A stretch of 64,000 bases of DNA. Source: Glycera tridactyla (lineage: Eukaryota). A program made the position numbers. Of this stretch, positions 19,206-28,200 are shown piece by piece. Position 1 is the first letter of the stretch, and every line of letters begins with the position of its first letter. Location: assembly GCA_965644265.1 (NCBI GenBank), contig OZ286476.1, positions 18,848,001 to 18,912,000 on the forward strand, given 5' to 3'.

Positions 19206-22200
19206 GAAGGTGGTGGTGGTGGTGGTAGTGTTGGTGTTGGGGGTGTTGGTGGTGGTGGTGTTGTTGGTGGTGTTGATNNNNNNNNNNNNNNNNNNNNNNN
19301 NNNNNNNNNNNNNNNNNNNNNNNNNNNNNNNNNNNNNNNNNNNNNNNNNNNNNNNNNNNNNNNNNNNNNNNNNNNNNNNNNNNNNNNNNNNNNNNNNNNN
19401 NNNNNNNNNNNNNNNNNNNNNNNNNNNNNNNNNNNNNNNNNNNNNNNNNNNNNNNNNNNNNNNNNNNNNNNNNNNNNNNNNNNNNNNNNNNNNNNNNNNN
19501 NNTCCCTATGACCGCCAGCAGATGGCATTGACATCGCACTGAGGGCTTCACAACTGAACGGCTACAGCCACACCACCTGGAGAGAACTGCCGATCTATCT
19601 GTACCATTTCTCCCTCAAATTAAGCATTCCCCAGGCCGATAGGCCTGCCACGAATTATAAATATCAAAAATATATATAAGATATATATTTATAGGAGTGC
19701 TACCTCTCGTCCGCCGATAAGTTGCGCCAGATGGCGCTATAACCGGAAGTTGCGTCCGCAACCATAACAAACTGTGTATTCTTCAATTTCGCCTCTTCCG
19801 AGAGCTTGTTGAATACCCGGGCTGAGGAATTTCGCTATTTATCGACTTTTCTCAGGGCCTGTGCGCGAATTGTTTAGGAATAATTATTCCTTGTTATTCA
19901 CGGATTGTATACGTATATTCATTGTATAGTATAGCCTGAGCATTATTGAAGTTTGACCGTTTTTGTCGTAGCATAACGGGAGCGTGACTCGGCCTTATCG
20001 GCTGGCGTTGACAGCGGCAGCGGGGTTACCGGTATCAGGACGACCGACCGACTCGCCAACCGACCGCCGCTTTTCGCTAGTCAACCGACCGACCTTATTT
20101 CTTTTGGATTGACAGTTACCAGACACGCTAGTCAACTTTGATGCTAGATATTTCAGCAACTGCTTGACATACAATGAAGGCGAACATGCGATTGTAAAGA
20201 ACACAACTGGTAGATTCCCCGATCAAAGTTTCATAATTTTTCAATGTGTTTATCACCTCCAAATACGAGTGCAAATATACAATTTCACGGCAAACTTTTG
20301 CCATTGCGGCAGCGATCTCCCGGTGATGGATTCTCACACAGAACGCTGCCATTTGCGATCTTTATAACACAAAATGTGTGTAAACGATCGTTTTCTGACA
20401 GGTTATGATGGTTACTGGTGAAAGTTGATGTATTTATGGTTGTATATCGACCAGGATTCGGTGTTGAGTGGCGGTCGGTTGACTGGTGAAAAGCGGCGGT
20501 CGGTTGGCGAGTCGGTCGGTTGACATGTAATCGGGTTACCTTGCGCGGTCTCGGATTCCCGGGATCGTTCCGCCCTAGCGTTTATGTTGTTGTCACGTAC
20601 GGGGATATTTTCTCTTATGTTGTTCAATTTGAAACTACAATAGACGTCTATCAGTTTCATTTCATGTTCGTGTAGCGTCCGATTCGGTTCCGTCAGTCTC
20701 TAGTCATATGATGTCCGGTTAATACGCATTTGTCATAGGTCCGGTCCGGTCTCTGAGAGTAGATGTCCGGCCGGCCAGACACGGGCGTTGTCAGCGGCGG
20801 CGGTCCGGTGGGGTTACCTTGCGCGGTCTCGAATTCACGTAGTCCCGGGATCGTTCCGCCCTAGCGTCTACGTTGTTCAAAATGAGACAACCAGAGAGAT
20901 AGTCAAGTACGAATGTTGTTCAATTTGAAACTACAATAGTCCGGTTAATACGCATTTGTCATAGATCCGGTCCGGTCTCAGTCAGTCGAGGGTTGATGTC
21001 CGGCCGGCCGGGTGTCGGTGGTCCGGGTGCTCCTATGTCCGGTTTTCAAGCATGCCCAAATTGAACGTTAGTAGTATACGAGGTGGCGTCTTGCTCCCCT
21101 AGTAGTGTATAAGGTTGCATTTGAACCTCATAGTAGTATAGTATATTCGGTTCACCTCAACTGTTCATCTGTTATAGAACTGTTGTCCTATATGATCATC
21201 AACAATGAAGATGTGATTAGTTGTCACTTGCTGGTGGGAAAATGACCTTTGATCTGTGATTAACCACAGGTGTATGTTCCGAAATGACGGCTTGCCTGTC
21301 TGTGATTTTCATACGCTTACACCTCAGCAATGTGTAGCAATAGTAGTATAGTATATTCGGTTCACCTCAACTGTTCATCTGTTATAGAACTGTTGTCCTA
21401 TATGATCATCAACAATGAAGATGTGATTAGTTGTCACTTGCTGGTGGGAAAATGACCTTTGGTCTGTGATTAACCACAGGTGTATGTTCCGAAATGACGG
21501 CTTGCCTGTCTGTGATTTTCATACGCTTACACCTCAGCAATGTGATATATGTGTGTGTTAGGATTGAATGAACAGCCATACATCATGTCCAGTCTGACAC
21601 ATCAGTAAAATCGTTGTGTCTGGCTGAATCAGTTGTCCTATTGTGTTTCCAATATCAGCAACTCCGGTATTGTCTGCCTGCTACTACGCTACCAATTGCT
21701 TGAGTCACGCTGCATATCGCTTATACGGTCCCTATAATGTCTGTGAACCCAAACCAAAAGAAGGGCTCATGTGGCCACTTCATGGCCAAGTGGGACAACC
21801 ACCTCTCATGTCCCTCTTGTAGGTTGTGTGGGAAAAATCCAGACCCTATTACCAATGCTCAGGTTACATGTGATATCTGCAAGTTGTGGTCCGCTGATCA
21901 GTGGGCTTAGCATCATAGCAGAACTTTCTCGTCCAAGAAACAAAGATCTTCTTCTGTCTCTTCTTCCGCATCTTCTAAGAAGGTTCCTATATTGACTTCA
22001 GTTGAGGCAGTAAAATCGCCTCCAAGCAATGTAACTGTTAGGAAAGGAGAGCCGTTGGGAGTTCCAGTCATTGAACCCATAGATCCTGTCAGTCCGGGGA
22101 GGATTGACAAGTCCGAGGCAGGACTTAATGTGTCCGACAGTTCGCCTGTTCGGTCCAATGAGGATCTTCATGACCCAGAGCCGGAGAGCTTGATTGAGGG

Positions 22201-25200: not shown

Positions 25201-28200
25201 AGTGCTGTAGCGCTGAACAACTGGACCGTCTCAATAGACTTGAAAGATGCGTATTTTCACGTCCCAGTGCACCCCCAATTTCAGAAATACCTCAGGTTCG
25301 CTTTGTCAAAGACAGAGGCATACCAATTTTGTGCCCTACCCTTCGGTTTGTCAACAGCTCCGCGAATCTTTACCATGGTATTGAGGGAAGTGGCGCACCA
25401 CTTACATTGTCTAGGAATCAAAGTCCACTTCTACCTAGACGATTGGCTGATTCGACACCAGGATCCAGAGATGTTAAGCATTCATTTGCGGTACGTCCTG
25501 GACCTGGCTCAGAGTCTTGGCTGGATAGTGAACCTCGAAAAGTCGGATTTGACTCCGAGCCAATCGTTCACTTATCTAGGAATAGAGTTCAACACCAGTC
25601 AGGGTCTAGTCAAGCCATCGTTGAAGAGAATGGACAAGATTCTACTTTGCATTCGGTTGTTTCTGAGACGCCCATGTCAACCGGCAAGATCGGTTCTTCG
25701 CCTGCTTGGGCATATGTCCAGCATGGCAGACTATATTCATCTGGGTCGCCTATATATGAGGCCTCTCCAGATGTGTCTACTGTCCCAATGGCGTCCGTTC
25801 ATGGACCATATAGAACAGATTATAGTCATTCACCCAGAAGTTCTGAGAACATTGAGTTGGTGGGGAAACCGACAGATTATTTATGCAGGTGTACCTCTGG
25901 AGCCTGCTCTGCCAAATGTCACCATGCTGACAGATGCTTCTCTGGACGGGTGGGGTGCCCACATTCAAGACGAGGGCGACAATCAGATCGCAGGAACGTG
26001 GCCTTCTTCCTATTCGGACAGGTCCATAAACAGTTTAGAACTGGAAACGATTCTGTTGGCCCTCAGGGGTTTCTCGACAATACTTCGCGGAAGAGTGGTT
26101 ATGATTCTCTCGGACAATGTCACTGCTGTGTCATACCTGAGAAAGCAGGGAGGGACTCATTCCTCTCTTCTGTGTGGACTGGCTTGGAAGATTTTTATGT
26201 TGGCACAGAGTCTGGGGATATTAATCAGAGTTCGTCATATCCCAGGACGCCAGAATGTACTGGCAGACTCTCTGTCGAGGACCAAGCCAGTCCAGACCGA
26301 ATGGGAACTGAATCAGTCTGTATTCAGTGCAGTATTGACAGCTTTTCGTCTCAATCCTCTAGTGGACTTGATGGCAACACCTTTGAATGCCAAACTTCAA
26401 GTCTACATATGTCCATATCCGGAACCCAGAGCACTAGCCATAGATGCTCTGTCAATTCCTTGGAACCAGTTCAGCCTGGCCTACATATTTCCTCCCACAG
26501 CCATGATTCGGGAGGTGCTGAACAAACTAAGGGGTCTGGAGACCACACTGATTTGCATTGCCCCTTGGTGGCCGAATCAGTCGTGGTTTCCAGACCTCTT
26601 GGAGCTGTCAATCGATTTTCCTCGCGAGCTTCCTCTGAACAGGGAGTTGTTGACTCAGATAGTGAGGAGGAAGAGGGTTCATCACTTCAGGCCTCAGGTG
26701 ATGAATCTAGCCGCCTGGTGCCTATCCGGCAGGCCCTCCCCAGAAAGGGCTATTCAACAAATGCAGTCGAGCGGATCATTGGATCAATCCGTCGCTCGTC
26801 TGCTAAGATCTATGAATCACGCTGGCGCAAATGGTTCTTCTGGTGTAAGAACAACAGAGTGGATTCGACTAATCCCTCTAGTCCGCAGGTAGCAGATTTT
26901 TTAGTAGGTCTCTTTGACACAGGAATTCAACCAGCTACAGTCAGGGGGTATAGGAATGCCCTGCAGTCTGTGTTCATGTATACTGATTGTAAAGTTTTGT
27001 CATCACGAGACTTGAGATCTTTGTTGAATAATTTCTATCTGGAGAGGCCGGTGTCAGTGAGGGTCGTTCCGCAGTGGAGTCTCCCTTTAGTTTTGTCTTT
27101 TCTTAAGACTTCTGCTTTTGAACCTCTGGATGAGGTTGGCCTGTTGAACCTCACTCGGAAAAATGTTTTCTTACTGGCACTGGCGTCGGGTAGGCGTCGG
27201 AGCGAAATACATGCCTTTTCTGCACAATCAGTTGTAAATCCGTGAAATGTGGGTGTTTTGCTTACTCCGGGTCTCATATAATGTATATATTCTAATATTT
27301 GGGTTTGATGCATTATCCTCATCGGATATATAATCTTCCCAAAAGACAAGGAGTTTTTCAGAGGCTCTACACCCGCCATCCGTGTCATATACGGATGCTT
27401 AATTTGAGGGAGAAATGGTACAGATAGATCCCCCCCCAGGTTTACTTGTTTAACCTGGGGATCTATACTTACCATTTCTCCCTCAAATTGGAGGCTCCCT
27501 CCCGTCCTTCCCCGCTGTAGAGCTTGGAGGCTCAATTGAGAATACACAGTTTGTTATGGTTGCGGACGCAACTTCCGGTTATAGCGCCATCTGGCGCAAC
27601 TTATCGGCGGACGAGAGGTAGCACTCCTATAAATATATATCTTATATATATTTTTGATATTTATAATTCGTGGCAGGCCTATCGGCCTGGGGAATGCTTA
27701 ATTTGAGGGAGAAATGGTAAGTATAGATCCCCAGGTTAAACAAGTAAACCTGGGGGGGGGGCCTATTATATGCTTGCGATCATGCTGAAGTCTCCAGGCA
27801 GCGAAGGCGATTGTATTATATCATCAACACGGCTACGAGATGATGATGATGTGATGGAGATGCGGCCAATCTGACCGCCTCGTGGATATTGACTTTTTCA
27901 AAAACCTCGAGGCGGTTGGTCAGACTGCCGGGGTTATGAGATGACAAGGCTGGGGGCAAGGCAGCTATGTGGCGGTGGAGGGCCGATGACAGGTGTAAGG
28001 GAGGCGTTTTCGCATTTTCCAGCCACCGCCATGCTACCGCCACCTCCTACCATGTATGTGTAAAACCCCCTTTACATAGGACTTCATCATCCTGATCAGC
28101 GCAAAATATACAATACGCATTCTGAACAAATTCTTCAAGGATTACACATTCAGAATCAAACCTGTCAAAGACGCGGAGATAATATGAATACTTGAATGAT

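What the first reader, a model, noticed from the sequence alone, without database searches (positions are those of the whole stretch)
21737..27400. A young insertion of an already crippled element: probable trans-mobilised, pol-only DIRS
The ITR cores are identical over 181 bp and the ICR matches both termini perfectly, so the insertion looks recent. Yet gag has two nonsense codons and two frameshifts, and the recombinase lacks its catalytic C-terminal half. RT, RNase H and MT, including the overlapping frame, are intact. This pattern suggests the defects predate insertion and that a helper copy supplied Gag and recombinase. Alternatively the lesions are assembly errors or the ITRs were homogenised.
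Basis: partly seen in the sequence, partly recalled or inferred. Interest (0 to 1): 0.68.

Follow-up and report, generated by a model that had tools for sequence, protein, structure and literature searches.

The report
Recent but broken DIRS1-like retrotransposon copy
An 8.2-kb jumping-gene copy of the DIRS1 kind has perfect end signals but a broken coat-protein gene and a gutted recombinase gene, so it cannot move by itself and may have been copied by an intact relative.

Summary
The finding's span is the inner part of a DIRS1-like tyrosine-recombinase retrotransposon, 19592-27759 (8,168 bp). Inverted terminal repeats share a 181-nt identical core. A two-part internal complementary region matches the left end 36/36 and the right end 60/60. 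A diverged duplicate of the flanks at 62.2 kb lacks the element, which fixes its ends and shows no target duplication.

The gag-like ORF1 needs at least four lesions (two stops, two frame changes). ORF3 lacks about 185-190 codons of the recombinase through one in-frame internal deletion. The pol ORF is whole and keeps 126 of 126 residues invariant in ten relatives.

A simple neutral model disfavours all lesions arising after insertion (P about 0.02 for the stops, 0.26 for the frame changes). No other genome copy or read could be examined, so inherited lesions, assembly artefact and later decay all stay open.

"Pol-only" is doubtful. In the window and seven relatives ORF3 follows a TAG, in frame with ORF1 in 5 of 5 relatives that hold it. 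Pol lies +1, with no ATG of its own in 5 of 5 relatives. A broken ORF1 therefore probably silences everything. This is a new member of a known kind, of modest interest.

The parts
19592..27759 (+). Whole DIRS1-like element (8,168 bp; ends good to within 1-2 nt because of G runs)
   Evidence: The ICR halves define both ends. The duplicated flank at 62196-63608 is continuous across the junction. GC is 0.47 against 0.30-0.42 around it.
19592..19795 (+). Left terminus / left ITR: outer 10 nt differ from the right arm at 3 positions; identical core 19602-19782
19796..21736 (+). Long non-coding leader (1.94 kb) with internal repeats: 205-nt unit x2 at 21130-21544 (1 mismatch), repeated units at 20533-20643/20811-20939 and 20713-20776/20939-21009, inverted repeat 20029-20091/20472-20534
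   Evidence: No Rfam family or tRNA. The complete relative L002 has only about 350 nt between its ITR and the ORF1 frame.
21737..24797 (+). ORF1, gag-like, broken: 2 stop codons and 2 frame changes (minimum), plus one in-frame 114-nt tandem duplication. It ends at its natural TAG.
   Evidence: DP count. The N-terminal Cys/His-rich domain matches ORF1 of 3 of 5 relatives and P0173. The open stretches hit a profile of the relatives' ORF1 in collinear order, mostly weakly. No Pfam family and no homologue for the longest stretch.
24670..26892 (+). pol ORF (740 codons stop-to-stop, intact), +1 relative to the end of ORF1
   Evidence: Pfam RVT_1 E 1.8e-25. 2087 homologues, best 62% identity at 94% coverage. 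126 of 126 columns invariant in ten relatives are kept.
24988..26280 (+). RT plus RNase H domains (Ty3/gypsy-like); the Pfam RVT_1 part is 25099-25590
   Evidence: Window pol residues 107-537 match the Ty3 RT/RNase H chain 4ol8_A residues 73-475, E 8.7e-16. The profile of 11 sequences gives E 7.1e-33.
26287..26889 (+). Conserved C-terminal domain of pol, the one the literature calls 'methyltransferase' (MT)
   Evidence: 36 invariant columns among 8 sequences. No Pfam family and no PDB sequence match at E<=10. The MT name comes from PMC3266345 only.
24798..27245 (+). ORF3: a stop-free 'bridge' overlapping pol, then the recombinase remnant (homologous part about 26673-27245). Broken by one in-frame internal deletion of about 185-190 codons. 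The N-terminal domain and the first conserved Arg block are kept.
27395..27489 (+). Internal complementary region: left half 27395-27430, right half 27430-27489, sharing 1 nt
   Evidence: 36/36 and 60/60 complementarity to the two ends. It folds as a long hairpin, -52.4 kcal/mol, z -10.6.
27527..27759 (+). Right ITR (27527-27729) and 30-nt right extension rE (27730-27759) that has no partner in the left arm
62196..62340 (+). Empty site: the diverged duplicate of the flanks runs straight across the insertion point
   Evidence: 19509-19590 matches 62196-62277 (93%) and 27760-29082 matches 62279-63608 (93%).

Best explanation
Identity (about 0.95 sure): this is one copy of a large DIRS1-like tyrosine-recombinase retrotransposon. 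From 5' to 3' it carries a left ITR, a 1.9-kb leader, the gag-like ORF1, pol (RT, RNase H, 'MT' domain), ORF3 (bridge plus recombinase) overlapping pol, a two-part ICR, a right ITR and a right extension. It was inserted without a target duplication into one copy of a local segmental duplication. As it stands it cannot make Gag or an active recombinase. Because pol and ORF3 in this clade appear to be reached only through translation of ORF1, it probably makes no protein at all. Every known cis signal (ITRs, rE, ICR) is complete. History (inferred, about 0.4): the repeats look freshly made, while the interior carries five disabling lesions. The most likely story is that an already defective template RNA was reverse-transcribed, end-repaired on its own ICR and integrated by proteins supplied by an intact relative. 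That makes it a non-autonomous copy spread in trans. Shown here: anatomy, lesion counts, identity of the repeats, the empty site, and the layout in relatives. Inferred: the order of events, the existence of a helper, and the recoding routes.
For: Repeat identity: 181-nt core, 36/36 and 60/60. The published model resets these repeats each cycle and shows the ICR to be essential (PMC7192593, passages and section 21 read). Empty site with no duplication. Lesions: 2 stops and 2 frame changes in ORF1 and one deletion in ORF3. Neutral post-insertion model: P about 0.024 for the stops and 0.26 for the frame changes; best likelihood 0.0064 at t=0.0024. Nearby tandem repeats inside the element do differ (3 of 121 and 1 of 205), so small differences are not simply absent from this assembly. 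Pol keeps 126/126 invariant residues and the retained recombinase part keeps 17/17. CpG o/e is 0.75 against 0.58 in the rest of the window. In Dictyostelium the RT acted in trans on a truncated construct's RNA (PMC7192593, section 21).
Against: Only one copy was seen, so no lesion is shown to be shared, and no intact family member is known from this genome. The statistics assume uniform rates and repeats that were truly identical at birth, and the result is only moderately small. All four point lesions lie in ORF1 and none in pol or ORF3 (P about 0.05 under uniform spread), which long unselected passage in trans does not predict. The same Dictyostelium paper did not obtain a full retrotransposition cycle for its truncated element. 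Identical ITR cores also occur in relatives (142 nt in L002, 91 nt in L001), so core identity may be common for reasons other than youth. The window has 12 N runs, and assembly quality is unknown.
Confidence: 0.4

Rival explanations
1. Assembly artefact. The inverted arms and ICR/terminus pairs were collapsed to one sequence by the assembler, or the 8-kb copy is a mosaic of several family copies, or some stops and frame changes are consensus errors. The contrast between 'perfect ends' and 'broken inside' would then not be real.
For: 12 N runs in 64 kb. Multi-copy elements and inverted repeats are classic collapse targets (general knowledge). Relatives assembled from environmental data also show perfect ITR cores.
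Against: The assembly keeps a 3-nt difference between the outer ITR ends. It also keeps single differences between adjacent tandem copies (1 of 205, 3 of 121). The longest single-base run in ORF1 is 5 nt, so homopolymer miscalls are not an obvious cause. The ICR halves match their own, differing, termini.
Confidence: 0.25
2. An autonomous copy inserted and then decayed in place. The repeats stayed identical by chance, or by gene conversion between the arms and the ICR.
For: At the upper bound of divergence allowed by the repeats (about 0.6% per lineage), roughly one nonsense hit in ORF1 is not impossible. A deletion and indels can occur at any time.
Against: Joint probability is about 0.006 under the simple model (0.024 x 0.26). 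Pol shows no change at 126 invariant positions. Three separate repeat pairs would all have to be homogenised.
Confidence: 0.15
3. Dead on arrival. The parent was intact and supplied its own proteins, and the lesions arose during the one reverse-transcription event that made this copy (template switching for the deletion, polymerase errors or editing for the rest). No crippled lineage is needed.
For: An internal in-frame deletion that keeps the native end of the ORF is the kind of product template switching gives (general knowledge). Everything else in the copy is pristine.
Against: Five disabling events in one cycle is far above usual reverse-transcriptase error rates (general knowledge, not measured here). 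No editing signature could be looked for without the parent sequence.
Confidence: 0.1

Closest known systems
DIRS-1 of Dictyostelium discoideum (reference element; PMC7192593 and PMC3266345, passages read)
   Same: Both have inverted terminal repeats with non-identical outer ends and a right extension. Both have an ICR made of two adjacent halves complementary to the two ends (33+55 nt there, 36+60 nt here). Both have three ORFs with a long pol/recombinase overlap, and neither makes a target duplication.
   Different: 4.8 kb there against 8.2 kb here. Here ORF1 is about 1,020 codons and the leader is 1.9 kb. Here the recombinase domain lies downstream of pol at the end of ORF3. Here the ICR halves share 1 nt rather than a 3-nt junction.
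Animal DIRS1-like elements surveyed by Piednoel et al. 2011 (PMC3266345; passages and Table 3 rows read, supplements closed)
   Same: The terminus plan is the same: divergent ITR, conserved ITR and rE, with two ICRs. The long ORF overlap was seen in half of their 28 elements. The pol domain order is RT-RH-MT.
   Different: Their sizes run from 3,974 to 6,283 bp. 23 of their 28 elements begin and end with NTT, whereas this one begins ATC/GAT and ends in a G run. Their main text does not mention an in-frame ORF1/ORF3 arrangement (0 occurrences of 'stop codon', 'same frame', 'in frame').
L002 (JBEVXV010000660.1, filed as 'MAG: Sedimenticola sp.'): a complete relative of 6,950 bp, with L001 and L003-L007
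   Same: The layout is the same: ORF1 of 697-1,002 codons, then TAG, then in-frame ORF3 of 988-1,009 codons, with pol +1. ITR, ICR and rE are present in L002. The ORF1 N-terminal Cys/His domain is shared with 3 of 5.
   Different: Pol identity is only 39-42%. Their ORF1 and ORF3 are uninterrupted and the recombinase is full length. The L002 leader is short.
SIRE/VIPER of trypanosomes (non-autonomous derivative of a tyrosine-recombinase retroelement; PMC6681497, passages read)
   Same: It is a defective derivative that keeps terminal sequences and is discussed as possibly mobilised by autonomous copies.
   Different: SIRE is a short, high-copy element with split direct repeats. Here a single, nearly full-length copy is known, and no family of defective copies has been shown.
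Cre recombinase (PDB 7rhz_B and others) and Ty3 RT/RNase H (PDB 4ol8_A)
   Same: A profile of the relatives' recombinase region matches Cre in both its N-terminal and catalytic parts (E 6e-5). The window pol matches Ty3 RT/RNase H (E 8.7e-16).
   Different: The window copy keeps only the part that matches the Cre N-terminal domain, plus the first Arg block. The similarities are distant: profile level for Cre, and no Pfam integrase hit above cut-off.

Membership tests
DIRS1-like retrotransposons (order DIRS) | Inverted terminal repeats | tested here: met
   204 nt at 97% with a 181-nt identical core
DIRS1-like retrotransposons (order DIRS) | Two adjacent internal complementary regions near the 3' end, complementary to the left and right termini | tested here: met
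   27395-27430 matches the left end 36/36 and 27430-27489 matches the right end 60/60
DIRS1-like retrotransposons (order DIRS) | Terminal extension (rE) present in one terminus and in the ICR only | tested here: met
   27730-27759 has no partner in the left arm but is matched by the right ICR half
DIRS1-like retrotransposons (order DIRS) | Integration without target-site duplication | tested here: met
   The duplicate flank is continuous across the junction; at most 1-2 G are ambiguous
DIRS1-like retrotransposons (order DIRS) | pol with Ty3/gypsy-like RT and RNase H | tested here: met
   RVT_1 E 1.8e-25; Ty3 RT/RNase H 4ol8_A E 8.7e-16 over residues 107-537
DIRS1-like retrotransposons (order DIRS) | 'Methyltransferase' domain after RNase H | tested here: inconclusive
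   A conserved C-terminal domain exists (36 invariant columns of 8 sequences), but there is no Pfam family and no PDB match at E<=10. No fold comparison was run.
DIRS1-like retrotransposons (order DIRS) | ORF encoding a tyrosine recombinase with its catalytic domain | tested here: not met
   This copy lacks about 185-190 residues present in 16 of 16 relatives, including 6 of 23 invariant columns. The family itself matches Cre. The copy is therefore a defective member and not a non-member.
DIRS1-like retrotransposons (order DIRS) | Long overlap of the recombinase ORF with pol (frequent, not universal) | tested here: met
   0 stops after the TAG against 35-39 expected, 0 of 5000 shuffles as low. 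The same holds in 7 of 7 relatives. P0125 aligns with the overlapping frame and not with pol.
DIRS1-like retrotransposons (order DIRS) | NTT trinucleotide at both ends and a 3-nt circular junction (frequent in the 2011 survey) | tested here: not met
   The ends are ATC/GAT... and ...G run, and the ICR halves share 1 nt. This feature is frequent but not defining.
PAT-like / Ngaro / VIPER elements | Split direct repeats (A1 ... B1 A2 B2) instead of ITR plus ICR | tested here: not met
   No terminal direct repeats; the only long direct repeats are internal tandems
Non-autonomous retroelement lineage mobilised in trans | Several copies at different loci that share the same disabling lesions, plus an intact helper family in the same genome | not testable with these tools
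   No second copy in the window. Nothing closer than 61-62% in the protein sets.
Tyrosine recombinases (Cre-like) | Catalytic residues equivalent to Cre R173, K201, H289, R292, W315, Y324 (roles recalled) | tested here: not met
   Only the first Arg block is kept (invariant R). The stretch that aligns with Cre 273-338 is absent from the window copy.

The most novel reading that the evidence does not exclude
In this clade of large DIRS1-like elements the recombinase may be made only as a read-through extension of Gag. Translation would pass one conserved TAG and then a roughly 600-codon stop-free bridge that overlaps pol, while pol itself would be reached by a +1 shift from Gag. Any break in gag would then abolish all three proteins. 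The window copy would be a wholly non-coding but cis-complete element that spread on a helper's proteins, and so a sequence-level case of trans-mobilisation in DIRS1-like elements of animals.
Probability: 0.25. Interest if true: 0.55.

Novelty: new member of a known kind. Interest (0 to 1): 0.3.

Why it matters
Little is known about how DIRS elements replicate outside Dictyostelium. Even there, only the reverse transcriptase has been shown to act in trans, and a truncated element did not complete a cycle (PMC7192593, section 21). A family of copies sharing this copy's lesions would show, from sequence alone, that Gag and the recombinase can also be borrowed. Separately, the conserved TAG between in-frame ORF1 and ORF3 offers a concrete reason for the long-known but unexplained pol/recombinase ORF overlap: the frame may need to stay open only so that ribosomes can reach the recombinase. 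If neither holds, this is one more decayed transposon copy.

Tried and rejected
1. Pfam on the ORF1 stretches, ORF3 and nine relatives gave nothing above cut-off. The second query was in the wrong frame by my slip and is evidence of nothing.

2. A homologue search with the longest ORF1 stretch gave 1 weak hit among 8000 scored. ORF1 beyond its N-terminal domain therefore cannot be checked by close homology. A small profile of six relatives gave collinear hits, but most were weak (E 3e-14, about 4, 0.02, 0.001, 0.16-0.4).

3. I tried to ask whether the frame changes sit in single-base runs. My segmentation mixed in chance open stretches of other frames, so the output is unusable. Only the longest run in ORF1 (5 nt) is kept.

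4. Rfam, tRNA and tandem-repeat scans of 19503-28500 showed no RNA family and no tRNA.

5. Cluster look-up of six relatives returned no names, so the host taxa of the relatives stay unknown.

6. PAT/Ngaro-type split direct repeats were considered and rejected. A DNA transposon with terminal inverted repeats was rejected because of RT/RNase H, the ICR and the lack of a target duplication.

7. The rE hairpin as a conserved priming structure: -16.2 kcal/mol, but z is only -1.9 and it is absent in L002, so it was not pursued.

8. The 'MT' domain against solved structures gave no match, and no structure prediction was run.

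
Full report
WHAT IS THERE. The finding's span (21737-27400) is the inner part of a larger unit. A self-comparison shows inverted repeats at 19592-19795 and 27527-27729, 97% alike over 204 nt. Between 27395 and 27489 lies a two-part internal complementary region (ICR). Its left half, 27395-27430, is the exact reverse complement of the first 36 nt of the left end (19592-19627). Its right half, 27430-27489, is the exact reverse complement of the last 60 nt of the right end (27700-27759). 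The last 30 nt (27730-27759) have no partner in the left arm; this is the 'right extension' described for DIRS1-like elements (PMC3266345, passages read). The element is therefore 19592-27759, 8,168 bp. Its GC is 0.47, against 0.30-0.42 around it.

THE ENDS ARE CONFIRMED BY AN EMPTY SITE. The flanks belong to a local segmental duplication. 17000-19591 plus 27760-29238 match 59269-64000 at 91-96%. In the second copy the sequence runs straight across the insertion point: 19509-19590 matches 62196-62277 and 27760 onward matches 62279 onward. There is no target-site duplication; at most one or two G are ambiguous because the element ends in a G run. This is what recombinase-mediated integration predicts (PMC3266345 and PMC7192593, passages read). 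An N run (19278-19502) lies just upstream. I did not try to fill it or any other of the 12 N runs.

The longest identical run between the arms is exactly 181 nt, 19602-19782 against 27539-27719. The outer 10 nt differ at 3 positions, and each ICR half matches its own terminus, differences included. The observation about the repeats is confirmed.

CODING CONTENT.
- Pol. ORF 24670-26892, 740 codons, has Pfam RVT_1 at E 1.8e-25. Alone it matches Ty3 RT/RNase H (PDB 4ol8_A) over residues 107-537 at E 8.7e-16; as a profile of 11 sequences the match is E 7.1e-33.
- Pol homologues. Of 8000 candidates scored, 2087 proteins had E<=0.001. The best are 61-62% identical over 92-94% of the query and 684-708 aa long. 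The window copy keeps the residue at 126 of 126 columns that are invariant in the other ten aligned sequences.
- 'MT' domain. The C-terminal 200 residues are conserved, with 36 invariant columns among 8 sequences. They match no Pfam family and no solved structure at E<=10. The 'methyltransferase' name rests on the literature alone.
- Overlapping frame. A second frame is open from 24798 to 27245. Across the pol ORF it holds 1 stop, the natural end of ORF1. Codon shuffles give 39.1 +/- 4.8 stops and synonymous shuffles 34.8 +/- 4.3; 0 of 5000 shuffles of either kind were as low.
- Recombinase part. The last 190 residues of that frame find 5899 proteins at E<=0.001 in the representative library, the best at 61% identity. 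Many hits are about 950-985 aa long with the match near residues 600-785. One of them, P0125 (968 aa), has no similarity to the pol translation (best E 0.75). It aligns with the overlapping-frame translation over residues 32-786 at E 2e-46.

THE LESIONS, COUNTED.
- Recombinase. In an alignment with 16 relatives, all 16 carry about 185-190 residues that the window copy lacks. The window ORF's last residues align with the relatives' extreme C-terminus. This is one internal, in-frame deletion that keeps the native stop.
- What is lost and kept. Of 23 columns invariant in the relatives, 17 lie in the retained part and all 17 are kept; 6 lie in the missing part. A profile of this alignment matches Cre recombinase (E 6e-5) in two stretches. 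One is the N-terminal domain. The other is Cre 273-338, which holds H289, R292, W315 and Y324 (residue roles recalled). The second stretch is absent from the window copy.
- ORF1 (21737-24797, 3,061 nt). The cheapest path from its ATG to its natural stop costs four lesions, two stops and two frame changes. Staying in any single frame costs 27-82 stops. ORF1 also holds one in-frame 114-nt tandem duplication.
- Homology support for one ORF1. Support is strong only for the N-terminal Cys/His-rich domain. That domain hits 3 of 5 relatives' ORF1 at E 1e-6 to 2e-10, P0173 at E 1e-6, and a profile of six relatives at E 3e-14. The other open stretches hit that profile in collinear order but weakly (E about 4, 0.02, 0.001, 0.16-0.4). 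The longest stretch has no real homologue, 1 weak hit among 8000 scored.
- Places. I give no places for any break.

RELATIVES AND LAYOUT.
- Loci found. Seven loci (L001-L007) have pol 39-42% identical. They are filed as 'MAG: Sedimenticola sp.' but look like eukaryotic host DNA.
- Shared frames. In all 5 loci that hold both ORFs, ORF1 (697-1,002 codons; L007's, 528 codons, is cut by the contig start) and ORF3 (988-1,009 codons) are in the same frame, separated by one stop codon. Pol is +1 in 6 of 6, counting the window.
- The TAG and the open frame. The codon before ORF3 is TAG in 8 of 8 (window plus seven), followed by G or C. The ORF3 frame has 0 stops over about 700 overlapped pol codons in 7 of 7 relatives, where synonymous shuffles give 17-26 with a minimum of 6.
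- Pol start. None of 5 relatives has a pol-frame ATG between that frame's upstream stop and 120 nt past the TAG. The window has one, 1 nt after the TAG.
- An uninterrupted form. P0173 (1,870 aa) is a single ORF with the ORF1 N-terminal domain at residues 15-57, a gag-like stretch similar to L004 ORF1, and the recombinase N-domain at 1506-1689.
- A complete relative. L002 is a complete element of 6,950 bp with ITRs, both ICR halves (38/38 and 57/58) and a 142-nt identical ITR core.
- My inference. ORF3 is read as an extension of Gag past the TAG, and pol by a +1 shift. If so, the broken ORF1 of the window copy cuts off pol and ORF3 as well, and 'pol-only' is not a functional description.

YOUNG, AND BROKEN BEFORE INSERTION? 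The published model, quoted in PMC7192593 (passages read), rebuilds most of the left repeat from the right one and both outer ends from the ICR in every cycle. The same paper shows the ICR is essential. On that model the repeats are identical at birth.
- Age bound. There are 0 differences in 251 paired positions, which bounds per-lineage divergence below about 0.6%.
- Test against decay in place. Nonsense targets are 128 (ORF1), 88 (pol) and 111 (ORF3), in units of expected hits per unit of per-site substitution; the repeats add 502. The chance that both substitution-type events are ORF1 nonsense is 0.024, or 0.041 against the repeats alone. The chance that both frame changes fall in ORF1 is 0.26. 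The best likelihood of 'all after insertion' is 0.0064, at t=0.0024.
- Assumptions. This assumes uniform rates and honest repeats.
- Evidence against a long unselected history. All four point lesions sit in ORF1 and none in pol or ORF3 (0.15 x 0.31, about 0.05), and pol is pristine.
- Small differences elsewhere. Tandem repeats inside the element do differ (3 of 121 and 1 of 205). This argues mildly against wholesale collapse by the assembler.

VERDICT ON HISTORY. Inherited lesions with help in trans is the best single reading (about 0.4). Three rivals remain open: assembly artefact (0.25), decay in place with homogenised repeats (0.15), and lesions made in the very cycle that created the copy (0.1). 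The deciding evidence could not be obtained. That evidence is other copies sharing the lesions, an intact family member, and read support. The window has no second copy (3 protein matches inside the element, 0 outside). The protein sets hold nothing closer than 61-62%.

COMPARISON WITH WHAT IS KNOWN.
- Membership. The terminus and ICR plan, the missing target duplication, the RT-RNase H-'MT' pol and the long pol/recombinase overlap are all described for DIRS1-like elements. The overlap is reported in half of 28 surveyed elements (PMC3266345, passages and Table 3 rows read). This copy is a defective member of that superfamily.
- Differences from the 2011 survey. It is 8.2 kb, against a range of 3,974-6,283 bp. 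ORF1 is about 1,020 codons. The leader is 1.9 kb and rich in repeats. The ends are not NTT. The ICR halves share 1 nt.
- Non-autonomous relatives in print. A non-autonomous derivative of a related group is known, SIRE of VIPER (PMC6681497, passages read). I found no paper describing a trans-mobilised DIRS1-like copy (search: 4 papers, none on this).
- Read-through in print. I found no paper linking DIRS to stop-codon read-through (search: 3 papers; I read passages of one, PMC8226300, and the two terms are unconnected in it; the other two I saw only in the search listing). PMC3266345 has 0 occurrences of 'stop codon', 'same frame' or 'in frame'.
- What I could not read. The main reviews (Goodwin and Poulter 2001; Poulter and Goodwin 2005; Poulter and Butler 2015) are not in the searchable library, and I recall them only in outline. 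They may already describe the in-frame layout.

SCORES. New member of a known kind; interest 0.3. The boldest reading not excluded is a Gag-dependent read-through layout plus a truly trans-mobilised copy: probability 0.25, interest 0.55 if true.

Noticed in passing
window 24795-24800; L001 2939-2941, L002 3321-3323, L003 286-288, L004 3157-3159, L005 2546-2548, L006 86-88, L007 1585-1587: The codon between ORF1 and ORF3 is TAG in 8 of 8 elements, followed by G or C. ORF1 and ORF3 share a frame in 5 of 5 relatives that hold both. Pol is +1 and lacks its own ATG in 5 of 5 relatives. One relative protein (P0173, 1,870 aa) is a single uninterrupted ORF1-bridge-recombinase. This suggests read-through for the recombinase and a +1 shift for pol.
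   Followed up: partly
window 17000-19591 and 27760-29238 versus 59269-64000: A segmental duplication of at least 4.7 kb, 42 kb apart, at 91-96% identity. Only the first copy holds the element. Both copies have an N run at nearly the same relative position (19278-19502 and 61699-62195). I left these alone.
   Followed up: partly
window 19796-21736: An unusually long, repeat-rich leader between the left ITR and ORF1. It holds a 205-nt unit twice (1 mismatch), further repeated units starting with the same 9-mer, and a 63-nt inverted repeat pair at 20029-20091/20472-20534. Whether part of it is a nested insertion or a family trait is unknown. The relative L002 has only about 350 nt here.
   Followed up: partly
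window 27728-27756: The right extension can form a 10-bp hairpin (-16.2 kcal/mol; 9 of 200 shuffles fold as well). A 3'-end hairpin has been proposed as a primer for DIRS-1 (cited in PMC7192593). The equivalent stretch of L002 does not fold notably.
   Followed up: partly
L001-L007, L010-L014: Retrotransposon-bearing contigs of 3.5-9.8 kb are filed under bacterial genome bins (Sedimenticola, Thiodiazotropha, a tubeworm endosymbiont). They look like host-animal DNA binned with symbionts. L010-L014 hold more distant RT genes (22-29% identity) that I did not examine.
   Followed up: no
window 27740-27759 + 19592-19600 versus 62265-62290: The predicted circle junction and the empty target share short words in the same order (AACC, CTGG, CTAT). 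This could be chance or a hint of target preference. It was not tested.
   Followed up: no
window 28335-28400, 30317-30415, 6321-6401: GACA/GAGACA-type microsatellites recur at three places in the window.
   Followed up: no
window 6709-7113 (-): An ORF of 134 aa with a sub-threshold Pfam hit to Anoctamin (E 0.026, 13.9 bits against a cut-off of 28). It is possibly an exon of a host gene and the only hint of a host gene seen.
   Followed up: no
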